Shown here one piece after another: positions 3,592 to 17,968 of a DNA stretch of 24,000 nucleotides; the first letter of the stretch is position 1; each line of letters begins with the position of its first letter. Below the pieces are notes generated by a model, which made no database searches, was not told the DNA's origin, and worked only from the letters and a program-made list of their open reading frames with translations. The stretch is taken from contig FR879709.1 of NCBI GenBank assembly GCA_000435055.1, forward strand, positions 129,961 through 153,960, given 5' to 3'. This DNA is from Clostridium sp. CAG:138 (GTDB lineage Bacteria; Bacillota; Clostridia; Christensenellales; CAG-138). The position numbers and the translations under genes are program-made.

Positions 3592-5102
3592 TTCTCTGCT
3601 TTTCGTGCAGGAACAGTTTTTTGTGGTTTCGCCGAAGCATCATCATCCGCGAAAACATCGGCTTTTACTCTTCCGCGGAGCATAATATCCGTGCAAATGC
3701 CGCAGAATATTATAAACAATATGACGTTTGCAAGTGAGCACCAGAACACAAGGCGTTCATCCCAATAGAGGTGGTACTCATGCAGTTTGCTGTAATAAAA
3801 TGCTGCAATGCAGTTCACAAGCGTTGTTGCGCTCCAGCACATGAACATGCTGATAAGTCGCCTGTCGCCGTAGCTGATGTAAGCAACAAGCAGCAGAAGC
3901 AGCACGGGAAACAGGTAGCGTTCGTGCATGTAGTGGCCGAGAGTGAAAAGCGAGGCGAATGTGAATGCGGTTGCAAGACTCAACGCGCCGGAATGCTTTT
4001 TCCTGCCGAAGAAATACAGAACACCGCCGAAACCGACTGAAAGAACCATCAGAACGGTGCCGAGCTGGCCGTAAGTCAGCCCGAGAATTGCCTTCTCGGT
4101 TATCGGGGTCCAATTCTTTCCGAACAATGTGTAAATATTGTATGCATTTACGCTTGCGTATTTATAAGAAGTAGCGGTTCCCATATATTTTTGAAGGATA
4201 ATGGAATACCACGGCATGGTGTCATCGGCAAACGGAATTACGGACACAATGATAAGTGCGCAGGCGCAGGCGACCGCAGCAACGGTTTTCATTATTCGCG
4301 TTCCGACTCCGTCCGCACATTTTCTGCCTGTCGGACTGAAGAAATCCGGATCGAAAATATAGCAGAAATATGCAATCGCAAGAAGGGGACCCGCCATCAA
4401 AGCCTGCGGCTTGAGCAGGATTGATAATCCGTAAACAAAACCCGCAAGAATCGGTTTGTTCGAATTGAGCAGAATAATGCTTATTACAAGCAGGATCGAA
4501 AGAATCTGATCGATCTGTCCCCATCCTCCGGAAACATAGATGAAAACGGGGCAGAATGCTGCAAGGCACATAAGAAGGTACGCGGCCTCAAAGCGAAGTT
4601 TTTTGCGCGCAAGCCTGTAAACAAGATACGCCGAGCCTATATCGGCAATTATCGACGGGAGTTTTATCATTGTGACATAGAATATGTCGTACGAGCCGTC
4701 CGCCGCATAAACGCCGTGACCGAAAAGATCCGCTATGCGCGCCATCAACCCCAAAACATACATATATCCCGGCGGATAATCCGGAAAATTGGTTTGAGGA
4801 TTATAGAAGTTTTGAAAGCCGTTTCTGAATATTTTGTTTCCCCACGATGTGAAACAGCCTATATCGGTTTTGTGTCCGACAATATAGTAGGAAAAAAGAA
4901 TATGCAGCAGCAGCGAAGCAAGCAGCGTCCACACAACAAGGAGATTGTCTGATTTGTCGCGTACACCGTTCACAAGAACGGCTCTGCTTTTTTTGATGCT
5001 TACATAGACCATGTAGATCAGCAAAAAGGCAATCGTTGCCAAAATGGAAGCGATCAGTATTTGCTCGGTCGGAAATTTGGTCGGCGTCATATTGAATGCC
5101 AT
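3588..5102 (-). CDS. GT-C fold integral-membrane glycosyltransferase (Gpi18/PIG-V-like or ArnT-like, exact family uncertain)
   Basis: Polytopic membrane protein. Its first external loop carries FTSWGNKIF...FYNPQTNFPDYPPGYMYVLGL, a motif I associate with COG5542-type mannosyltransferase-like GT-C enzymes. The ORF is open to an ATG at 5180, which has no SD. TAAGGAGG lies directly before the ATG at 5102, with another ATG at 5090, so the true start is probably 5102 or 5090. Confidence 0.7.
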   Translation of the reverse strand: MAFNMTPTKFPTEQILIASILATIAFLLIYMVYVSIKKSRAVLVNGVRDKSDNLLVVWTLLASLLLHILFSYYIVGHKTDIGCFTSWGNKIFRNGFQNFYNPQTNFPDYPPGYMYVLGLMARIADLFGHGVYAADGSYDIFYVTMIKLPSIIADIGSAYLVYRLARKKLRFEAAYLLMCLAAFCPVFIYVSGGWGQIDQILSILLVISIILLNSNKPILAGFVYGLSILLKPQALMAGPLLAIAYFCYIFDPDFFSPTGRKCADGVGTRIMKTVAAVACACALIIVSVIPFADDTMPWYSIILQKYMGTATSYKYASVNAYNIYTLFGKNWTPITEKAILGLTYGQLGTVLMVLSVGFGGVLYFFGRKKHSGALSLATAFTFASLFTLGHYMHERYLFPVLLLLLVAYISYGDRRLISMFMCWSATTLVNCIAAFYYSKLHEYHLYWDERLVFWCSLANVILFIIFCGICTDIMLRGRVKADVFADDDASAKPQKTVPARKAEK

Positions 5103-5186
5103 CCTCCTTATGAAAGCCTGCTGTAAGATGCCGAATGCGTCCGGCTGACCTCTGTCACACCGCTCACGTTCGCGCATCATACACCG

Positions 5187-5216
5187 ATTTTATTTATTTT
5201 ACCATATTATGTTCAA
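5187..5216 (-). promoter_or_regulatory. candidate sigma-A promoter of the glycosylation cluster
   Basis: The minus strand reads TTGAAC-18 nt-TAAAAT, and the spacer also contains an extended -10, TGGTAAAAT. The site lies just downstream of the yraN terminator. The predicted TSS near 5180 argues against the ATG at 5180 as the start codon. Confidence 0.4.
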
Positions 5217-5235
5217 AATTTGAAGTGCCGAACGC

Positions 5236-5270
5236 AAAAAAAAGCAGCAAACAACAAAATTGAAAGCTGC
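5236..5270 (-). terminator. probable intrinsic terminator after yraN
   Basis: The minus strand reads GCAGC...GCTGC, with an interrupted stem that has inner CAA/TTG pairs, followed by a run of eight T. The weak stem lowers confidence. Confidence 0.45.
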
Positions 5271-5302
5271 GGGAAAAGTCGATAACGGATTTTTTATTTT
5301 GT

Positions 5303-5680
5303 TTAAATCGTAAATGCATTTTCTATATGTCTGATTTTATGTTCCGAAAGTATCACTTCAATTATATCGAAGCGATAGTAAACCGCCTTTTGCCTGTAAT
5401 TTGCCGCAAAATACTTTGCAGCGTAAGCCATGTTTGCTCTTTTTGCAGAACCGACACGCAGCATCGGCGGCAGCTCCTTTGAATCGAGAGCGGTCTTGAC
5501 CTCGACAAAGGCAACGGTGCTTCCTTTTTTTGCGATTATATCAATCTCCTTGTGTGCAACACGGTAATTGCGCTGAAGGATTCGGTACCCGTGCAAACGA
5601 AGGTAAAGCCTTGCCAAACGCTCCCCTCTTGCACCGATGCGCTGCTGTTTGCTTCCGTTTTCAATATTCAGCCGTTCCAA
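5303..5680 (-). CDS. yraN: YraN-family (UPF0102) endonuclease-like protein
   Basis: The YraN signature GARGERLARLYLRLHGYRILQRNYRVAHKEIDIIAKKGSTVAFVEVKT is present. The track ORF extends to 5797, where it overlaps rnhB. GGAGG-5 nt-TTG at 5680 gives a typical ~125-aa product. Confidence 0.85.
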   Translation of the reverse strand: MERLNIENGSKQQRIGARGERLARLYLRLHGYRILQRNYRVAHKEIDIIAKKGSTVAFVEVKTALDSKELPPMLRVGSAKRANMAYAAKYFAANYRQKAVYYRFDIIEVILSEHKIRHIENAFTI

Positions 5681-5714
5681 TTGCACCTCCGATCGGGTGT
5701 ATACAGCAACGCGG

Positions 5715-6374
5715 TCAGCATTCACCGCGTTCCGCAAGAATTTTTTTGATGAAGCTGCGCCTGTGAAGTTCGCACGGACCGAATTCACGAAGCGCATCCA
5801 TATGCTGCTTTGTTCCGTAACCGACGTTTTTTTCGAAACCGTACTGCGGAAATTTCTCCGCTGCGGCGATCATGTATCTGTCTCTTTCCACTTTTGCAAC
5901 TATGCTTGCCGCCGCAATGGAATAACACAATGCATCGCCGTGGATAAGGCTGTGCTGCACGGCGGGAATATCAAGTTCTTTAACGGCATCAACAAAAACG
6001 TCGCTGCACACGTAATCGCCCGGGCAATGCGCCAAAGCATTCCTGTAAGCTTCGGCAAACGCCTTTTTTGTTGCCTGAAGAATATTTATCTCATCAATTT
6101 CCTTTTGAAACACCCATCCTGTGCCGAAAGCTGTCGCTCCGCCTGTAATAAGCGGGTAAAGCTTTTCCATGCGCTTCTTTGTAAGCTTTTTGGAATCGTT
6201 CACGCCCTCTGTCACAAATCCCGGAGGAAGGATCACGCATGCGGCAACAACGGGGCCCGCGAGCGGTCCGCGCCCGACTTCATCCATTCCCGCAACGGCG
6301 ATACCGCGTTCCCAGAACGGGCGTTCGTATTGAGTCATTTGTTCAAGCCGTTCGGCCTCGTTAATCTTTTTCAT
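5715..6374 (-). CDS. rnhB: ribonuclease HII
   Basis: GMDEVGRGPLAGPVVAACVIL with DSKKL motifs, 219 aa. It sits in the conserved position after rbgA. Confidence 0.95.
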   Translation of the reverse strand: MKKINEAERLEQMTQYERPFWERGIAVAGMDEVGRGPLAGPVVAACVILPPGFVTEGVNDSKKLTKKRMEKLYPLITGGATAFGTGWVFQKEIDEINILQATKKAFAEAYRNALAHCPGDYVCSDVFVDAVKELDIPAVQHSLIHGDALCYSIAAASIVAKVERDRYMIAAAEKFPQYGFEKNVGYGTKQHMDALREFGPCELHRRSFIKKILAERGEC

Positions 6375-7263
6375 TGTTTATATCGGTTTGCTCCGCTTGC
6401 TGGGGTTCGAAATTATCCGTGGGGTTTTCAAGAGCAACGGCGGCAATTTTGCCCGCACGATACTCATCAAGAACTATTCTTGCGCCGCGTTCCGTATCAA
6501 AAACTCCGCCCGAAAGAATAAACCCGCGGCTGCGGCACACGCCTTCCAGCAGAAGCTCGGGAATATCCTGTTTCGGATCAAGCTTTTTGTATCTTGCCGT
6601 CAAAGCCTCCGGGCATATGCGCACAAGGTCAAAAAGCAGCAGGGCCGAAATTTCCTCGATATCAAGCACATCATCCCGAATCGAACCAATATATGCAAGA
6701 TGCTTTGCAAGTATCTCGTTATCCAACTTGCCCCAAAGCAAACCCGGAGTGTCAAGAAGCTCGAGATAGTCCGAAACTTTGACCCATTGCTTTGACCGCG
6801 TAACGCCCGGACGATCGCCGACCTGCGCTCTTGCCGCGCCCGCAATACGATTGATGAAAGTGGATTTTCCGACATTCGGAACGCCGACGACCATTGCGCG
6901 CAAAGTTTTTTTAATGCCTTTTTCGCGATACCGCCGAACGGTCTCCTCCCCCGTTTTTTCAATAAGCTCAATTGCACGTTTGCGTGTTGAGGGCTGAGTT
7001 GAGATAAACTCCGCAGCTGTGATTCCCTGCTTTGCAAAATAACTTATCCATGCGCGATTCTGAGTTTTTGATGAAAGGTCACTTTTATTAAGAACAACAA
7101 CACGCAGCTTGTTTTTGAAAAGAGCTTCGAAATCGGGATTGCGGCAAGCCATCGGTGCGCGTGCATCGACAATTTCGATTATCATGTCAACAAGCTTTAA
7201 GTTGTCCTCCAGCATACGTCTGGCTTTTGCCATGTGCCCGGGATACCAATTTATCGTGTGCAT
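6361..7263 (-). CDS. rbgA: ribosome biogenesis GTPase A (YlqF/RbgA)
   Basis: The N-terminus is INWYPGHMAKA. The G motifs are circularly permuted (NKSDL before GVPNVGKST, then DTPG). GGAGGTAAAACCC lies before the ATG. Confidence 0.95.
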   Translation of the reverse strand: MHTINWYPGHMAKARRMLEDNLKLVDMIIEIVDARAPMACRNPDFEALFKNKLRVVVLNKSDLSSKTQNRAWISYFAKQGITAAEFISTQPSTRKRAIELIEKTGEETVRRYREKGIKKTLRAMVVGVPNVGKSTFINRIAGAARAQVGDRPGVTRSKQWVKVSDYLELLDTPGLLWGKLDNEILAKHLAYIGSIRDDVLDIEEISALLLFDLVRICPEALTARYKKLDPKQDIPELLLEGVCRSRGFILSGGVFDTERGARIVLDEYRAGKIAAVALENPTDNFEPQQAEQTDINNEKD

Positions 7264-13411: not shown

Positions 13412-13547
13412 ATATCCGTATTCGCTCCGTTCAAAGCATATTCGGAGTGGGTCCGATACCGCACCGGATGAAGGCTGCCTGCGAGCGAAGTTTTTTGCGT
13501 AAATGCCTTTTGGCTTTACCTTTTTCCGAACAAGGAGGCAAATCATA

Positions 13548-14135
13548 TTGAAACATGCTGATTTAAGAATCTTAAGGCGCATTGCGGCGTTTTTGCTTGT
13601 GGTTTTGAGCATTGCGGGCATTGCAGCCTGCACCGTACCCGAAGAGGTTTTCCCGCCCGATACCCCGACAGCTGCAATATCGGATGTATTGCACACAACC
13701 GAACCCACGGAAATCGGAACAGCCGCCGAAATTGAGCTCTCCGCAAAGCCGACTGCACCTCCGCAGGAACCGACTTCATCGCCGGTGAAAGAAAGCGGCG
13801 AATACAGTTCCCGTGATGAAGTTGCTCTGTACATCCACCTTTTCGGACATCTCCCCGCAAATTTCATAACAAAGAAACAGGCGCGGGAACTCGGCTGGCA
13901 GGGCGGCAGGCTTCAGGATTTTGCGCCCGGCTGCTCCATCGGAGGGGACAGGTTCGGCAACTACGAGGGGCTTTTGCCGCAAGCGGAAGGAAGGTTTTAT
14001 ACCGAATGCGATATCGACACCTGCGGAGCACCCTCACGCGGGGCAAAACGCATAGTTTTTTCGAATGACGGATTGATTTTTTATACCGATGACCATTATC
14101 AAAGCTTTATTAAGCTTTACGACGCGGACAATTAA
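13548..14135 (+). CDS. secreted barnase-family (microbial N1/T1-type) ribonuclease, predicted lipoprotein
   Basis: The C-terminal ~110 aa align by eye with barnase (ITKKQARELGW, APGCSIGGDRFGNYEGLLP, YTECDI, KRIVFS, YTDDHYQSF), with Glu/Arg/His equivalents of E73/R87/H102 present. The N-terminus MKHADLRILRRIAAFLLVVLSIAGIAAC is a signal peptide with a lipobox (IAAC). AGGAGG lies 9 nt before the TTG at 13548. The track ORF starts at 13503. Confidence 0.85.
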   Translation: MKHADLRILRRIAAFLLVVLSIAGIAACTVPEEVFPPDTPTAAISDVLHTTEPTEIGTAAEIELSAKPTAPPQEPTSSPVKESGEYSSRDEVALYIHLFGHLPANFITKKQARELGWQGGRLQDFAPGCSIGGDRFGNYEGLLPQAEGRFYTECDIDTCGAPSRGAKRIVFSNDGLIFYTDDHYQSFIKLYDADN

Positions 14136-14182
14136 ACCGCGGGTTTTTGAGAATTTTTAGGGATAATTGAGGATAATTGACC

Positions 14183-14512
14183 ATGACCGTATCGGATAAC
14201 AATTTCACACACAACTCCGGTTCCGAACAAAGCGGCGGCATTAAGAATATCCGCATTGACTTTACGGCGATTGCGGGAATTACCGATGCGCATCTGCGTA
14301 TTGCCGAGGCATTGCAGTTTCCGGATCATTACGGAAAAAACCTTGATGCACTCTTTGACTGCCTTGCGGAAATATGCAAACCCGTTGCAGTGACTCTCTT
14401 CGGAACGAGCGCACTGACTGCCGCCCTCGGCAGCTACGGGAGCATGATGCTGCGCGTGTTTTCGGACGCGGCAGCCGAAAACCCGAATCTTTCCGTTGAA
14501 ATCGCCGATTAG
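14183..14512 (+). CDS. barstar-family ribonuclease inhibitor
   Basis: FPDHYGKNLDALFDCL matches the barstar core (YYGENLDALWDCL), including the Asp39 equivalent. The gene lies 47 nt downstream of the RNase. The ATG is at 14183, and the track start at 14177 is TTG. Confidence 0.85.
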   Translation: MTVSDNNFTHNSGSEQSGGIKNIRIDFTAIAGITDAHLRIAEALQFPDHYGKNLDALFDCLAEICKPVAVTLFGTSALTAALGSYGSMMLRVFSDAAAENPNLSVEIAD

Positions 14513-14566
14513 TTTTATCGCATTCGATTTGTTAAAGTTTCAATGTTTTGGTTTTAAAACGGAAGC

Positions 14567-14596
14567 GGCAGACAGGATTTTTCCCGTCTGCCTTTT
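14567..14596. terminator. bidirectional intrinsic terminator between convergent genes
   Basis: GGCAGACAGG-ATTTTT-CCCGTCTGCC (9 of 10 bp paired) is followed by TTTT on the plus strand. On the minus strand it is followed by GCTTCCGTTTTAAAA. It lies between the barstar stop and the stop of the HTH-repeat gene. Confidence 0.7.
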
Positions 14597-14688
14597 GCCG
14601 AATATACGAAACCGAGTGTTGTTTAATTGCTTTTTATGCCGTTCCGAGTGCTGCTTTGCCGCTTGTTTTCAAAGACCGGAACCAATCC

Positions 14689-15948
14689 TCAGCCTTTGTA
14701 AATTATTCGGCTGCCTGCTTCGGCACTGCCCTTAATTGTTTTGCATTCAATACTGCCGCGAGCCTCCGCATGTCCCGCGATATCGCCGCAGCTTATATTG
14801 CCTCCGCAGTCAACGTTTCCGTCAACATTTCCGCAATTCATGCTCCCGCTTGTCTTCGCATGTCCGAGTATATCACCGCAGTTCACATCTTTGCCCGCAT
14901 TGACATCGCCGCTGACTTTGCCGCATTCAACACTTCCGCCGGTTCCAACATCGCCGCCGACATCCGCACAGCCGACATTTCCGCCCGCATTGACATCGCC
15001 GCCGATACTGCCGCATTCAATGCTTCCGCCCACTGAAATGTCTCCGCCGATATCAGCGCAGTTCACATTGCCGCCCGCGCCGACATCACCGCCGATTTCA
15101 CCGCAGTTCACATTTCCGCCCGCATATACATCACCGTTAACACTGCCGTTGATATCGGCATTGCCCCAAATTTCAACATTTATCGAGCAATCGGTGCGTC
15201 CGCCTTTCCTGCCGAACATACCCGCCGTTCCGTTCTCTTTTTCATATTTCAGTTCAACGGGAATGCAAACCGCAGGATCGTATTCCTGACTTGACACGAT
15301 CTGTTTTCCGCGCATCAGCACAACGCGCAGGGTATTATCATCCGGCATTTCGTCAATCATGATATTGCTCCATTCGAAACGATTTCCGTAATTACGGGTC
15401 GAAGAACGCGAATGTTTTTTTGCGCTTTTTTCAAATGCGCAGCCCGCTTTTTCAGCTTTTTTCTTTGCCATTCTCTCGATTTTTCTGCCGAATTCCTCGA
15501 TAGCATCCGTGTTGACGCTTACAATGCCGTTTCTGCCCTTTTTCACAAAGATGCAGCTGCCGTCATCATCTTCTTCATCGTCATCGTCATTTTCATCGTC
15601 ATCGTCTTCTTCATCGTCCCCGTCATTTTCATCGTCGTTTTCGTCCTCGTATTCGACTTCAACCGATTCCGGGTTGCAGGCAGCATCGCATTGCTGTTCG
15701 GCATCGGTATGAATTTCTTCACCCGCATCAATGTTTTTCTCGTTCTTAACATCGCGCAGCAGCTCATCCAGCGAAACGCCGAAAAGATCCGCAATTCGCG
15801 GCATCAACTCAATATCGGGATAGGAAGCCGCCGTTTCCCATTTGCTGACGGCCTGAACGGACACTCCGAATTCGGCAGCAAGCTGTTCCTGTGTCATTCC
15901 GCTTGCCTTACGCAGCTCGCGCAGTTTGATTGCAAAGTTTTCTTTCAT
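14689..15948 (-). CDS. XRE-family HTH protein with a poly-acidic linker and a C-terminal Cys-containing 15-residue repeat (beta-solenoid-like) domain
   Basis: The N-terminus MKENFAIKLRELRKASGMTQEQLAAEFGVSVQAVSKWETAASYPDIELMPRIADLFGVSLDELL is a canonical Cro/C1-type HTH. AGAGGGAA precedes the ATG at 15948, while the track ORF starts at 15987. There is no TM segment. See the findings for the repeat domain. Confidence 0.85.
   Translation of the reverse strand: MKENFAIKLRELRKASGMTQEQLAAEFGVSVQAVSKWETAASYPDIELMPRIADLFGVSLDELLRDVKNEKNIDAGEEIHTDAEQQCDAACNPESVEVEYEDENDDENDGDDEEDDDDENDDDDEEDDDGSCIFVKKGRNGIVSVNTDAIEEFGRKIERMAKKKAEKAGCAFEKSAKKHSRSSTRNYGNRFEWSNIMIDEMPDDNTLRVVLMRGKQIVSSQEYDPAVCIPVELKYEKENGTAGMFGRKGGRTDCSINVEIWGNADINGSVNGDVYAGGNVNCGEIGGDVGAGGNVNCADIGGDISVGGSIECGSIGGDVNAGGNVGCADVGGDVGTGGSVECGKVSGDVNAGKDVNCGDILGHAKTSGSMNCGNVDGNVDCGGNISCGDIAGHAEARGSIECKTIKGSAEAGSRIIYKG
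14692..15192 (-). repeat. about 10 degenerate tandem 45-bp repeats, coding (15-aa units)
   Basis: A recurring ...TTCCGCC(C/G)...CATC(G/A)CCGCCGA... unit appears every 45 bp. Translated, it gives GGDVxAGGNVxCxxI repeats. Confidence 0.85.
15562..15663 (-). repeat. GAT/GAA/GAC-rich triplet low-complexity tract encoding a run of D/E/N
   Basis: The plus strand reads GTCATCATCTTCTTCATCGTCATCGTCATTTTCATCGTCATCGTCTTCTTCATCGTC..., with TCATCGTCATCGTC occurring twice. It translates to YEDENDDENDGDDEEDDDDENDDDDEEDDDG. Confidence 0.8.
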
Positions 15949-15999
15949 GGTATTTTCCCTCTTTCTGATTTTCGTGAGTCGCCGCACCGCATATCTGTT

Positions 16000-16014
16000 A
16001 CGTTTGGAAAACGT
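16000..16014. promoter_or_regulatory. 6-3-6 inverted repeat ACGTTT-GGA-AAACGT in the predicted 5' UTR of the HTH gene (candidate operator)
   Basis: The palindrome has perfect arms and lies between the predicted TSS (~16041) and the start codon at 15948. Confidence 0.3.
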
Positions 16015-16047
16015 TTTTGTGTTTCGCCAACTCTTAATTTCGCGCTC

Positions 16048-16076
16048 ATTTTAGCAACGCAAGCTTTTCATGACAA
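16048..16076 (-). promoter_or_regulatory. candidate sigma-A promoter of the HTH-repeat gene
   Basis: The minus strand reads TTGTCA-17 nt-TAAAAT, with TGC extending the -10. Confidence 0.55.
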
Positions 16077-16109
16077 TAAAGCGGTGGTTGAAAACCCCAA
16101 AAAATCTGC

Positions 16110-16124
16110 TCAACCGTTGGTTGA
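16110..16124. promoter_or_regulatory. inverted repeat TCAACC-GTT-GGTTGA
   Basis: Perfect 6-bp arms with a 3-bp spacer. On the minus strand, TTTTTT follows 5 nt later. The site lies ~35 bp upstream of the -35 of the HTH-gene promoter. Confidence 0.35.
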
Positions 16125-16236
16125 ATCCCGTGCCGCCGCAAATTATTTATTCCTTTCGGTTTGTTTTGCGTGTTTCTTTAAAATTATTTCTGACTGAAAT
16201 CTTTTTTTCACAGATATATCTGCATTTATCAGCAAA

Positions 16237-16251
16237 TCAACCAAAGGTTGA
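16237..16251. promoter_or_regulatory. second copy of the same inverted repeat, TCAACC-AAA-GGTTGA
   Basis: The arms are identical to those at 16110-16124. A further GGTTGA half-site is at 16086-16091, and a CAGATATATCTG palindrome is at 16211-16222. Confidence 0.35.
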
Positions 16252-16300
16252 ATCGCATATCATTGCGAAACTCTCTTTGGTGTTTGCGCAAGAAGCTGTT

Positions 16301-17968
16301 TTATCGCCGCATTCCGCGCCCGCTGCGCTGCGAATTCACGGAAAAAGAACTTGCGATGCAGCGGAACATTCGTTCCGAAGCAAGGCGCAGACGCGTCTCA
16401 GCATCACAGTCTCCGTCCGCATTCGACTGTTCATCCGTAACAATTGTTGAAAAAACTCCCGCATTCGCAAGCTCGTAAATATGTTCATAACCCCTTCCGA
16501 GCCTTCCCGCAACAATAAACACGGGCACGGCGCCGCCGGAATTTGCGGCGCAGCGTTTCACAACCTCGCCGACGGCCTTCCCGTTGTCCGCACTTGATGC
16601 ATCAAGCTGCCCTTCTCCGGTTATGACAAGATCGGTGTCCCCAAGCAATGCATCAAAGCCGACCGCATTGAGCACCGCCGCCGAGCCGTGAGTCAATTCC
16701 GCGCCCAAAAGAGCCGACAGCATTGCACCCATGCCTCCCGCCGCGCCCGCACCGCATTCGGCGGACACTTTTCTCCCTGCCTCAGCGTCATACAAGGCCG
16801 CAATGTTTTTCATCCCGTCTTCAAGAGTGTTTAATGCTTCGGCGTCCGCGCCTTTTTGCGGTCCGTAGGTGTACGTCGCACCGTTTTTGCCTGTAAGAGG
16901 ATTATCAACATCACACATAACGGTTATCTTTGCCTCGAAAACATCTCTGCGCAAGCCTGACAAATCAATTTTACGCACCAAGGCAAGCTCTCGGCCGCAG
17001 CCCGAAAGCTCATTGCCGTCCGCATCCAGAAACTTAACGCCGAGAGCCGCTGCCGCACCCATTCCGCCGTCGTTGGTTGCGGAACCGCCTATACCGATCA
17101 AAATATTCCTTATCCCCTCGTTCAATGCTGAAGCGATAAGTTCGCCCGTCCCCCTGCTCGTTGCAGCAAGCGGATCCAATGCATTTTCATCCATCAATGC
17201 AAGCCCCGATGCCTTTGCCATTTCAATAACCGCTGTGGCGCCCGCCGTTTTTTCACCGAATGAGGTCAGAACACCGTATTCGGCAGCAATTTTCCTGCCG
17301 TCCGGCGCAGTAACATTCACCGAACGCATATTCCCGTTAAAGGCACGAGTAAGCGTTTCGGCCGTGCCGTCCCCCCCGTCCGCAATCGGAAGCGTTCTCA
17401 CACTGCATCCGGGAAGGTATTGCCGCGCTGCATTTTTGATAATCGTGCAAACTCTCTGTGCATCCATGCTGCCCTTGAACTTGTCCGGAGAAATAAGCAT
17501 CCGAATACCTGCGCCGACAGGGTCAATACGCCTTCCGCCGTATTCTTCAAAAGGGTTCACGGCAGGTTTTTCCGTTTTTTTGCAGCCGCACTCCGCCAAG
17601 TCTTTTTCATTAAAGACAAGGGTTCCGTTTTCGTCAAATCTGCCGTAAAAAGCCAGCTTCTCCGCCCGTCTGAGCGCATTCGTCTGAACGACGGGCCTGT
17701 ATTCCGCAAGCGCACCCGAAACGAGCGGATTGTCGTTCAGCTTTTCAAACAGACTGCGTGTTTGTTTTATGCCGCCGCCTGCAAATGCAACCGTGAATAT
17801 GTTTTTATCGTCGCTTTCATCAACCGGAAAATGACCCGCAAACAATTGAAGTCCACGAACGTCCGCCCTTTCAATTGCCGAAAAAATAAGGTTGAACGCA
17901 TGTTCGCGTTCATCTCCGTTTTCAACAGAATCGAATCTGAATCCGATACCGAAGCGTGAAATATTCAT
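16301..17968 (-). CDS. glycerate kinase family protein with an unrecognised ~156-aa N-terminal extension
   Basis: From residue 157, MLISPDKFKGSMDA...LPIADGGDGTAETL...IGIGGSATNDGG...LVITGEGQLD matches the glycerate kinase (GlxK/GarK) family. The ATG at 17968 has GAGGT 9 nt upstream, overlapping the stop of the clpC-like gene. Confidence 0.85.
   Translation of the reverse strand: MNISRFGIGFRFDSVENGDEREHAFNLIFSAIERADVRGLQLFAGHFPVDESDDKNIFTVAFAGGGIKQTRSLFEKLNDNPLVSGALAEYRPVVQTNALRRAEKLAFYGRFDENGTLVFNEKDLAECGCKKTEKPAVNPFEEYGGRRIDPVGAGIRMLISPDKFKGSMDAQRVCTIIKNAARQYLPGCSVRTLPIADGGDGTAETLTRAFNGNMRSVNVTAPDGRKIAAEYGVLTSFGEKTAGATAVIEMAKASGLALMDENALDPLAATSRGTGELIASALNEGIRNILIGIGGSATNDGGMGAAAALGVKFLDADGNELSGCGRELALVRKIDLSGLRRDVFEAKITVMCDVDNPLTGKNGATYTYGPQKGADAEALNTLEDGMKNIAALYDAEAGRKVSAECGAGAAGGMGAMLSALLGAELTHGSAAVLNAVGFDALLGDTDLVITGEGQLDASSADNGKAVGEVVKRCAANSGGAVPVFIVAGRLGRGYEHIYELANAGVFSTIVTDEQSNADGDCDAETRLRLASERMFRCIASSFSVNSQRSGRGMRR

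What the first reader, a model, noticed from the sequence alone, without database searches (positions are those of the whole stretch)
14689..15948. Transcription-factor HTH fused to a poly-acidic tract and a nine-rung cysteine ladder of exact 15-residue repeats
In ORF-track numbering, residues 14-78 are a textbook XRE/Cro HTH and residues ~112-142 are almost purely D/E/N. Residues ~266-432 are about 10 tandem 15-residue units with consensus GGDVxAGGNVxCxxI. Cys occurs at 295, 310, 325, 340, 355, 370, 385, 400 and 415, which is exactly every 15 residues for nine turns. There is no signal peptide or TM helix, so the protein is cytoplasmic. A 15-residue period reads as three pentads, each closed by V/I, which suggests a triangular beta-solenoid with one coil per repeat and all nine cysteines stacked along one edge. 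The solenoid families I know have other periods: hexapeptide LbH 18, pentapeptide 20, and bactofilin, as I recall it, about 17-18. The 15-residue coil I do recall is the spruce budworm antifreeze fold. A stacked thiol ladder on a DNA-binding protein could be a redox or metal sensor or a polymerisation surface. The acidic run could be an intramolecular DNA mimic gating the HTH. I do not recognise this architecture as a named family.
Basis: partly seen in the sequence, partly recalled or inferred. Interest (0 to 1): 0.7.

Follow-up and report, generated by a model that had tools for sequence, protein, structure and literature searches.

The report
Clostridial repressor-type regulator with cysteine-laddered beta-solenoid
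This gene encodes a DNA-binding regulator whose tail is an unusual, very regular protein coil with one cysteine per turn; it belongs to a widespread, unstudied family of gut-type Clostridia that carries a shared DNA control site in front of each gene, so its DNA-binding function can now be tested directly.

Summary
The gene on the minus strand (14689-15948) encodes 419 aa. It has an XRE/Cro HTH, a 33-residue D/E/N tract, and ten 15-residue coils with Cys exactly every 15 residues, nine times.

AlphaFold2 predicts a confident, regular beta-solenoid (pLDDT 92-98). The module is not a private expansion. Hundreds of Clostridia proteins share HTH, an N-terminal cap ('PDDxxLRVVQ...EIWG') and the same coil, G-[DNS]-V-x-A-G-G-x-[VI]-x-C-G-[ND]-[VI]-G. 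Cys is present in 918 of 931 in-register coils.

The poly-acidic tract and the coil number are lineage-specific and vary in length. The query itself matches no solenoid family. Relatives hit bactofilin or FapA only at the borderline, and profile-profile comparison with solved bactofilins is insignificant.

New here is a palindrome, TCAAC-N5-GTTGA. It occurs 69 times in 708 kb of family loci, always upstream of a family gene. It is followed in helical phase by a weaker copy that abuts a -35/-10 promoter. The window has three such sites.

Best reading: an autoregulated, cooperatively binding XRE regulator. The acidic solenoid is most likely a scaffold or oligomerisation module with a buried structural Cys stack. 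A redox, metal or polymerisation role is not excluded.

The parts
14689..15948 (-). CDS of the regulator: 419 aa from the ATG at 15948, stop codon at 14689-14691
15760..15924 (-). XRE/Cro-C1 HTH domain (Pfam HTH_3, residues 9-63). The recognition helix 'VSVQAVSKWE' is nearly invariant in the family.
15349..15747 (-). Lineage-specific linker, residues 68-200. It is mostly predicted disordered and includes a basic helix at residues 147-167.
15556..15654 (-). Poly-D/E/N tract, residues 99-131, net charge -26. It is encoded by 12/18/36-nt DNA repeats and ranges from 22 to 44 residues among close strains.
15175..15348 (-). Conserved N-terminal cap of the module, residues 201-258 ('PDDNTLRVV...IPVEL...'). 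It leads into 'EIWGNADI'.
14692..15174 (-). Acidic beta-solenoid, residues 259-419: about ten coils of 15 residues. Ladder Cys lie at ATG residues 282, 297, ..., 402. The C-terminal motif is 'RIIYKG'.
15957..15962 (-). Ribosome-binding site AGAGGG
16048..16076 (-). Promoter-like site: -35 TTGTCA (16071-16076), 17-nt spacer, TG-extended -10 TAAAAT (16048-16053)
16077..16091 (-). Proximal degenerate operator O_C, TCAACCACCGCTTTA (2 mismatches). It abuts the -35 and lies 33 bp from O_B.
16110..16124 (.). Perfect palindromic operator O_B, TCAACCGTTGGTTGA (TCAAC-N5-GTTGA)
16237..16251 (.). Second perfect palindrome O_A, TCAACCAAAGGTTGA, 127 bp upstream of O_B
14567..14592 (-). Terminator-like hairpin downstream of the stop codon (11-bp stem). 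The gene appears monocistronic.

Best explanation
The gene encodes a cytoplasmic XRE-family transcription regulator that controls at least its own promoter.

Proposed DNA binding. The HTH binds as a symmetric dimer to the 15-bp palindrome TCAAC-N5-GTTGA, whose half-sites are one helical turn apart. A high-affinity distal site (O_B) and a weaker proximal site (O_C) lie an integral number of helical turns apart. The proximal site abuts the -35 hexamer. This is the geometry used by lambda CI at PRM and by restriction-modification controller (C) proteins. It implies cooperative dimer-dimer binding and feedback on the gene's own expression.

Proposed role of the C-terminal module. The module consists of the cap plus a 15-residue-per-coil, strongly acidic beta-solenoid. 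It is most likely the rigid scaffold or oligomerisation domain that supports this cooperativity. The one-Cys-per-coil ladder is most likely a buried packing stack, at the small inward position ending the V-x-C strand, and not a ligand site.

Variable parts. The poly-acidic linker and the exact coil number are fast-evolving, lineage-specific length variables.

What is shown in silico: the domain architecture, the predicted solenoid, family-wide conservation of the Cys register, and the conserved operator/promoter layout. What is inferred: DNA binding to that palindrome, cooperativity, the direction of regulation, the role of the solenoid, and burial of the Cys.
For: HTH:
- HTH_3 scores 59.8 bits.
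- AF2 predicts a five-helix HTH with pLDDT above 90. Foldseek matches it to ImmR, C.BclI, C.AhdI and ClgR with target-normalised TM 0.7-0.85.

Solenoid:
- AF2 gives pLDDT 87 and pTM 0.80, with strands V-x-A, V-x-C and I recurring every 15 residues.

Family:
- 730 clusters at 90% identity reach E<=1e-5, and almost all listed hits carry HTH_3.
- 692 representatives at 50% identity reach E<=1e-10.
- 72 species-level loci were found. All but one are labelled Clostridia or Bacillota; one MAG is labelled Bacteroides.
- The coil logo has Cys in 918 of 931 in-register coils. Nine of the 13 exceptions are Ser. The positions predicted to face inward are V/A, A, V/I, C and V/I, and the predicted outward positions are variable.
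- The solenoid carries a net charge of about -1.8 per coil in all 103 members measured.

Operator:
- There are 69 exact TCAAC-N5-GTTGA matches in 708,537 nt. Sixty lie within 450 nt upstream of an identified family start. The other nine also lie upstream of family genes or family matches: eight in loci where my script missed the start, and one in L012, which holds tandem copies. About 0.7 matches are expected by chance, by my own arithmetic.
- The spacer is always 5 nt, and 39 of 51 non-redundant 160-nt upstream regions carry the site.
- The only two matches in the 24-kb window are upstream of this gene.
- Position 6 pairs as C..A in several operators, so an RNA hairpin is unlikely.
- A second site with at most 2 mismatches lies 21-22, 33, 36 or 42 bp downstream in 16 regions (15 when two near-identical L026/L046 upstream regions count once). 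About 1.2 are expected.
- The best promoter-like match starts 35-37 or 46-48 nt after the perfect site in 27 of the 38 regions whose match scores at least 8.5.
- The whole block aligns from the window to distant members.

Context and precedent:
- No conserved neighbouring gene, the gene is monocistronic, no viral loci were found, and PADLOC matches only the HTH.
- Structural Cys ladders inside solenoids have precedent in FdlA and InlJ.
Against: - No experiment supports any step. The promoter, the transcription start and the operators are pattern-based.
- In the window, the perfect sites lie upstream of the predicted -35 and do not overlap it, so the sign of regulation is open.
- Another, unidentified factor could bind the palindrome.
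- The orientation of the Cys could not be read from coordinates.
- Position 11 is essentially never Ala, Val or Thr (0 of 931), whereas the equivalent small position 5 tolerates A, C and S. That is stronger conservation than simple packing would predict, and it leaves room for thiol chemistry.
- Nothing shows that the solenoid oligomerises. Whole-coil indels would also fit a passive spacer.
Confidence: 0.6

Rival explanations
1. Thiol-ladder sensor. The stacked cysteines, about 4.8 A apart, act as a redox or soft-metal sensor. Oxidation or metal binding distorts or unfolds the solenoid and switches DNA binding. This would be useful to strict anaerobes.
For: Cys is kept in about 99% of in-register coils across proteins only 30-45% identical, and Ala, Val and Thr are never seen there. 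All hosts are anaerobic Clostridia. The protein is predicted to be cytoplasmic.
Against: The Cys ends a V-x-C strand and so probably faces the core (inference). There is no CxxC or His/Cys cluster. Nine of the 13 replacements are the isosteric Ser. Coil number, and so thiol number, varies freely between strains. No redox or metal genes are conserved nearby. Structural Cys ladders have precedent.
Confidence: 0.2
2. Bactofilin-type polymer. The solenoid stacks end to end into filaments or long oligomers. The protein is then a DNA-anchored cytoskeletal or nucleoid scaffold and not a simple regulator.
For: Thirteen of 63 relatives hit Pfam Bactofilin at E<0.01. P0071 scores 62.5 bits against a cut-off of 27.9, but that score is summed over several modules. 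Eight relatives hit the FapA solenoid. The C-terminal end of the solenoid is predicted to be uncapped and ends in a conserved aromatic residue (IIY), reminiscent of the Phe at the bactofilin C-C interface. Multi-module and FtsK-gamma variants exist.
Against: The query has no bactofilin hit even at E<=1. hhalign against solved BacA/TtBac and against 120 of their homologues gives probabilities of 2-3%. Foldseek does not retrieve bactofilin structures. Windings have 15 residues, not about 17. The surface is uniformly acidic and lacks the E/K/R network described for bactofilins. The N-terminal end carries a cap.
Confidence: 0.12
3. DNA mimic. The acidic rod, together with the poly-D/E tract in this lineage, mimics DNA. 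It either autoinhibits the HTH or acts as a decoy for another DNA-binding protein.
For: The solenoid has a net charge of -13 here and a median of -17 in the family, never neutral. The tract has a net charge of -26. Beta-helical DNA mimics exist, such as the pentapeptide-repeat proteins MfpA and Qnr (my own knowledge).
Against: The poly-acidic tract is absent from distant homologues and varies in length. The HTH domain itself is acidic (net -3), so electrostatic autoinhibition is not obvious. There is no pentapeptide signature and no Pfam hit. Acidic surfaces are also simple negative design against aggregation.
Confidence: 0.08

Closest known systems
XRE/Cro-C1 autoregulators with tandem operators (lambda CI at OR1/OR2-PRM; restriction-modification controller proteins such as C.AhdI and C.BclI)
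   Same: HTH_3 fold. The target is palindromic with half-sites about 10 bp apart. A strong distal site and a weaker proximal site sit an integral number of helical turns apart, and the proximal site abuts the -35 of the regulator's own promoter.
   Different: The C-terminal domain is a long acidic beta-solenoid and not a helical or LexA-like dimerisation domain. The gene is not phage- or R-M-linked. DNA binding has not been tested.
Bactofilin (Pfam PF04519; BacA 2N3D, TtBac 6RIA)
   Same: A small beta-helix is predicted, with three short strands per winding, Gly at the corners and a V/I/A core. Some relatives reach the Pfam threshold.
   Different: It has 15-residue windings, not about 17, and 4-11 of them, not 6. 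Each winding has one Cys. The surface is acidic, with no E/K/R network. There is an N-terminal cap and an HTH, not a membrane-targeting tail. hhalign probability is 2-3%.
FapA/DUF342 beta-solenoid (Pfam PF03961)
   Same: Eight of 63 relatives match at E<0.01. The best is P0070, with 35.2 bits against a cut-off of 31.
   Different: The query itself does not match. The matches cover the irregular, Cys-poor first coils of long paralogues. The FapA N-terminal domain is absent.
Structural cysteine ladders in solenoids (InlJ leucine-rich repeat; fucoidan lyase FdlA beta-helix)
   Same: One Cys per coil is stacked in register at a core position. In those proteins the ladder is interpreted as stabilising.
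   Different: Those proteins are extracellular, not DNA-binding regulators, and have different repeat types. Their ladders are shorter (five Cys in FdlA).
Spruce budworm antifreeze protein (CfAFP, 1M8N), a 15-residue-per-coil beta-helix
   Same: The coil length of 15 residues (three sides of five).
   Different: No T-x-T ice-binding face and no disulfides. Foldseek gives E=3 with TM 0.12-0.17. CfAFP is a eukaryotic secreted protein.

Membership tests
XRE/Cro-C1 HTH (Pfam HTH_3, PF01381) | Profile match above the Pfam gathering score | tested here: met
   59.8 bits against a cut-off of 23, E=2.6e-16, residues 9-63. All 63 aligned relatives match.
XRE/Cro-C1 HTH (Pfam HTH_3, PF01381) | Five-helix bundle fold resembling solved XRE repressors | tested here: met
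   AF2 predicts helices 2-16, 20-27, 31-38, 46-56 and 60-64 with pLDDT above 90. Foldseek matches ImmR, C.BclI, C.AhdI and ClgR with target-normalised TM 0.7-0.85.
XRE/Cro-C1 HTH (Pfam HTH_3, PF01381) | Sequence-specific binding to a palindromic operator | not testable with these tools
   Only comparative evidence is available. TCAAC-N5-GTTGA occurs 69 times in 708 kb, always upstream of family genes.
Bactofilin (PF04519) | Profile match above the gathering score (27.9 bits) | tested here: not met
   The query gives no hit even at E<=1. Relatives score 26-28 bits, except the multi-module P0071 at 62.5 bits.
Bactofilin (PF04519) | Profile-profile homology to solved bactofilins | tested here: not met
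   hhalign of A2 against BacA+TtBac gives probability 1.8%. Against 120 of their homologues it gives 3.1%. The A2 profile finds no PDB sequence at E<=10.
Bactofilin (PF04519) | Six windings of about 17 residues in a right-handed triangular beta-helix | tested here: inconclusive
   The model has a solenoid with three strands per coil. It has 15 residues per coil and 4-11 coils. Handedness could not be read from the tool output.
Bactofilin (PF04519) | End-to-end polymerisation into non-polar filaments | not testable with these tools
   No multimer prediction or experiment was available.
Spruce budworm AFP-type 15-residue beta-helix | T-x-T face, disulfide-braced coils, structural similarity | tested here: not met
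   No TxT motif is present and there is one Cys per coil. For 1M8N, Foldseek gives E=3 with TM of at most 0.17.
Pentapeptide repeat (20-residue coil) and hexapeptide LbH (18-residue coil) | Pfam repeat signature and coil period | tested here: not met
   No Pfam hit at E<=1. The period is 15, or 16 in one subclade.
Lambda-CI / C-protein type autoregulatory switch (works like, not a protein family) | A strong distal and a weak proximal operator in helical phase, with the proximal one abutting the -35 of the regulator's own promoter | tested here: met
   Site spacings are 21-22, 33, 36 or 42 bp. The -35 starts 35-37 or 46-48 nt after the perfect site in 27 of 38 regions. The blocks align across the family. 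The promoter is pattern-based only.

The most novel reading that the evidence does not exclude
This would be a previously unrecognised class of Clostridial transcription factor. In it, a cysteine-laddered, bactofilin-like beta-helix is the regulatory element itself. Either it polymerises or stacks to build cooperative nucleoprotein assemblies on phased operators, or its buried thiol ladder acts as a fold-switch that reports oxidants or soft metals to the HTH.
Probability: 0.2. Interest if true: 0.8.

Novelty: new variant of a known kind. Interest (0 to 1): 0.6.

Why it matters
XRE regulators are everywhere, but their C-terminal domains decide what they sense and how they assemble. This one has a beta-solenoid with a 15-residue coil and a near-invariant cysteine ladder. 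The module is not covered by Pfam or NCBIfam. It is present in hundreds of gut and rumen Clostridia lineages and, in the literature held here, has not been described as a fusion to a DNA-binding domain.

The predicted operator (WTCAACYNNNRGTTGAW) and its phased two-site promoter layout make the family directly testable. They also give a handle for finding its regulon in uncultured gut anaerobes.

The module would also interest protein engineers. It is a minimal, highly regular, soluble beta-helix whose length changes by whole coils in nature.

Tried and rejected
1. PDB sequence searches gave nothing relevant. The query's C-terminus and the A2 profile found no hits. P0071's third module found only a collagen-like repeat at E=0.11.
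2. Foldseek against PDB with the full-length model returned only HTH matches. With the C-terminal model, nothing scored better than E=0.36, and the hits were generic beta-helices.
4. Bactofilin homology was rejected at the profile-profile level.
5. No operon partner was found. All-against-all clustering of neighbours in 72 loci gave no conserved gene. The ABC ATPase and histidine kinase clusters (12 and 9 loci) are not consistently adjacent to the family gene.
6. A phage or defence origin was rejected. No viral contigs were found, and PADLOC matches only the HTH.
7. Rfam gave no credible match in 14400-16500.
This is the chance background of a 14-base pattern in a very large, mostly environmental collection, so it says nothing either way.
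9. A literature search for the motif found only the actinobacterial ClpC2 operator CGTCAAC-n5-GTTGACG, which I judge a coincidence.
10. Giant proteins hit by the solenoid profile are Cys-free, Ca-binding-type repeats and are not family members.
11. Linker length against operator spacing gave rho 0.50, p 0.10, n=12, which is not significant.
12. Literature searches found no paper describing an HTH-bactofilin fusion.
Full report
OBSERVATION

The minus-strand ORF 14689..15987 is 432 aa from a GTG. The real start is almost certainly the ATG at 15948, giving 419 aa. An AGAGGG ribosome-binding site lies 8 nt upstream, all close homologues begin MKENF, and independent gene calls on metagenome contigs give the same 419-aa product. 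ATG numbering is ORF-track numbering minus 13.

- Pfam HTH_3 matches residues 9-63 with E=2.6e-16.
- A 33-residue D/E/N tract has a net charge of -26.
- Ten 15-residue units follow, with Cys at ORF-track 295, 310..., 415, plus one extra Cys at 394.
- There is no hydrophobic segment. The highest 19-residue Kyte-Doolittle mean is 0.92.

The 45-nt units are only 60% identical to each other on average at the DNA level, with a maximum of 78%. TRF sees 45- and 90-nt periods. The array is therefore old and not a fresh amplification. The exact allele is indexed in 175 blocks of the assembly collection. It was confirmed on 23 contigs, the five examined in detail being 169-363 kb long with identical synteny.

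STRUCTURE

AlphaFold2 on a 63-sequence alignment gives four regions:
- a confident five-helix HTH (pLDDT above 90);
- a disordered stretch at residues 68-147, covering the first part of the linker;
- a helix at residues 147-167;
- a very confident C-terminal solenoid (pLDDT 92-98).

The C-terminal module alone (residues 202-419, 19-sequence alignment) gives mean pLDDT 87 and pTM 0.80. Its strands recur every 15 residues as V-x-A, V-x-C and I. The Cys closes a three-residue strand that opens with the conserved Val, and the residue between them is variable and polar. The Cys should therefore point into the core, like Val and Ala.

Cysteine ladders used as internal packing stacks have precedent in the FdlA beta-helix, and a cysteine ladder was reported for the InlJ leucine-rich repeat.

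FAMILY

The module is not private to this genome. A full-length search found 194 relatives. A profile of the C-terminal module alone found 730 clusters at 90% identity, and almost all the listed hits carry HTH_3. An exhaustive profile search of 1.84 billion representatives gave 692 hits at E<=1e-10 and 151 at E<=1e-30. The giant proteins among those hits are Cys-free, Ca-binding-type repeats and are spurious.

A scan of one genome per species gave 72 loci. All but one are labelled Clostridia or Bacillota: Oscillospiraceae, Lachnospiraceae, Christensenellaceae, Ruminiclostridium and others. One MAG is labelled Bacteroides. Sources name these proteins only 'helix-turn-helix domain-containing protein' or 'transcriptional regulator with XRE-family HTH domain'.

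The typical member is about 250 aa. It has an HTH, a short linker, a conserved cap ('PDDxxLRVVQxxG...EIWG[NS]ADI') and about seven coils.

Coil statistics:
- Of 172 non-redundant proteins, 135 have a dominant Cys spacing of 15 and six a spacing of 16.
- Within ladders, 918 of 931 coils carry the Cys. Nine of the 13 exceptions are Ser.
- The coil logo is G-[DNS]-V-x-A-G-G-x-[VI]-x-C-G-[ND]-[VI]-G.

The solenoid is always acidic, with a median net charge of -17, or about -1.8 per coil.

The long linker with the poly-D/E tract is different. It is specific to the query's lineage. Among 49 complete close relatives the non-repeat part is invariably 238 aa. The tract ranges from 22 to 44 residues. 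The solenoid takes lengths of 102, 117, 132 or 147 residues, which are whole-coil steps.

RELATION TO KNOWN SOLENOIDS

The query gives no solenoid hit in Pfam at E<=1, in NCBIfam or in PDB sequences. The family profile finds nothing in PDB.

Among 63 relatives, 13 touch Pfam Bactofilin and eight touch FapA at E<0.01. Most sit just below the curated thresholds. P0071 scores 62.5 bits, but only by summing several modules.

I recovered the BacA and TtBac bactofilin-domain sequences from PDB alignments and ran profile-profile comparisons. Against those two the probability was 1.8%. Against 120 of their homologues it was 3.1%.

Foldseek of the C-terminal model against PDB gave nothing better than E=0.36, and the hits were generic beta-helices. 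The spruce-budworm AFP scored E=3 with TM of at most 0.17.

Published bactofilins have six windings of about 17 residues, a core described as exclusively hydrophobic, an E/K/R surface network and a membrane-binding N-terminal tail. This module has 15-residue windings in variable number, one Cys per winding, a purely acidic surface, a cap and an HTH. I therefore describe it as bactofilin-like at most, and I do not file it as a bactofilin.

GENOMIC CONTEXT

The window is ordinary chromosome. It holds ffh, ylxM, two NUDIX genes, a barnase/barstar pair, glycerate kinase, a Clp ATPase, FtsW/RodA and PGI.

The gene has its own promoter-like site: TTGTCA, 17 nt, TG-extended TAAAAT, at 16076-16048. 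It also has a terminator-like hairpin at 14592-14567.

Clustering of neighbours across the 72 loci found no conserved partner gene. Some Lachnospiraceae carry two to four tandem paralogues. No relatives were found in viral contigs. Defence-system models match only the HTH. Rfam finds nothing credible.

NEW FINDING: A FAMILY-WIDE OPERATOR

I screened the 160 nt upstream of 51 non-redundant family genes for inverted repeats. The half-site TCAAC appeared in 39 of them, against a null maximum of about 5. It is always arranged as TCAAC-N5-GTTGA.

In all 708,537 nt held, there are 69 exact matches:
- Sixty lie within 450 nt upstream of an identified family start.
- The other nine also lie upstream of family genes or family matches. 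Eight are in loci where my script missed the start, and one is in L012, which holds tandem copies.
- About 0.7 matches are expected by chance (my own arithmetic).

In the 24-kb window, the only two matches allowing one mismatch are 16110-16124 and 16237-16251. Both lie in the 350-bp region upstream of this gene.

Position 6 is Y on the left and R on the right but often non-complementary (C..A). That argues for a protein-DNA half-site and against an RNA hairpin.

A second, degenerate copy (TCAAA or TAAAC, N5, GTTTA; at most 2 mismatches) lies 21-22, 33, 36 or 42 bp downstream in 16 regions, or 15 when two near-identical L026/L046 upstream regions count once. About 1.2 are expected.

The best -35/-10 match begins 35-37 or 46-48 nt after the perfect site in 27 of the 38 regions whose match scores at least 8.5. 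It therefore starts immediately after the second site.

The whole block aligns from the window to distant members. Its order is: perfect site, spacer, degenerate site, TTGnnn, 17 nt, TGnTAnAAT. The window carries a 12-nt insertion between the two sites. In the window the proximal site is 16077-16091 (TCAACCACCGCTTTA), abutting the -35 at 16071-16076.

MECHANISM

The recognition helix 'VSVQAVSKWE' is nearly invariant in the family, and the palindrome is nearly invariant upstream of the genes. The simplest reading is that these proteins bind their own promoters as symmetric dimers.

A strong distal site and a weak proximal site sit an integral number of helical turns apart, and the proximal one touches the -35. 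This is the layout of lambda CI at OR1/OR2-PRM and of restriction-modification controller proteins (my own knowledge of those systems). It implies cooperative dimer-dimer contacts. The only conserved part of the protein available for such contacts is the cap-plus-solenoid module.

I therefore propose that the solenoid is a rigid, soluble oligomerisation scaffold and that the Cys ladder is a packing element. I rate the DNA-binding and autoregulation part at about 0.85, the scaffold and structural-ladder part at about 0.5, and the whole at 0.6.

One observation is not fully explained. Position 11 never accepts Ala, Val or Thr (0 of 931), whereas the comparable small position 5 accepts A, C and S. 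This keeps a thiol-chemistry role alive, at about 0.2. A polymerising, bactofilin-like role (about 0.12) and a DNA-mimic role (about 0.08) are not excluded.

VERDICT

This is a new variant of a known kind: an XRE-family autoregulator with an undescribed cysteine-laddered 15-residue beta-solenoid, belonging to a sizeable, unstudied Clostridial family. The predicted operator makes it directly testable. Interest: 0.6.

Noticed in passing
window 13503-14135 (+) and 14177-14512 (+): A barnase-type ribonuclease (Pfam Ribonuclease; its N-terminal ~115 residues are not covered by the domain) is followed by its inhibitor barstar. The pair is convergent with the regulator gene.
   Followed up: no
window 16301-17968 (-): The glycerate kinase ORF is 555 aa, but the Gly_kinase domain covers only residues 157-538. 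The N-terminal extension of about 155 residues is unexplained. The same 555-aa product is called on other contigs.
   Followed up: no
window 16109-16125 (-): The 'terminator-like' hairpin reported by the pattern scan is the operator palindrome O_B. It may not be a terminator for the glycerate kinase gene.
   Followed up: partly
P0071, P0179-P0184 (proteins): Some family members carry three or four complete [cap + solenoid] modules behind a single HTH. The module therefore behaves as an autonomous unit.
   Followed up: partly
P0080, P0081, P0092; P0067, P0068, P0070, P0082: One subgroup adds a C-terminal FtsK-gamma winged helix, which would be a second DNA-binding domain. Another ends in a conserved tail, 'DLSNLGDYISRTVNDAMEAAFGKKK', that looks like an amphipathic helix.
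   Followed up: no
L012, L025, L033, L051 (around 5100-6700 in each locus): A Lachnospiraceae subclade has a 16-residue coil (C-x-G-D-I...) and two to four tandem paralogues per locus.
   Followed up: partly
window 14548-15036 (+), 14741-15289 (+), 15412-16197 (+): Long plus-strand ORFs overlapping the gene are antisense shadows of the repeats (A/S/P-rich or F/I/V-rich low complexity) and are not genes.
   Followed up: partly
family upstream regions (L001-L072): Longer HTH-to-cap linkers tend to go with longer spacing between the two operators: 33-42 bp against 21-22 bp. The trend is not significant (rho 0.50, p 0.10, n=12, not phylogenetically corrected).
   Followed up: partly
literature: PMC10030653: The actinobacterial ClpC2 autorepressor uses the operator CGTCAAC-n5-GTTGACG, which has the same core half-site and spacing. 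The phylum and the protein are different, so this is probably a coincidence.
   Followed up: partly
P0001 cluster: The 90%-identity cluster of the query's lineage holds 1698 distinct sequences of 285-448 aa. This points to a prevalent uncultured species and extensive length polymorphism in this one gene.
   Followed up: partly
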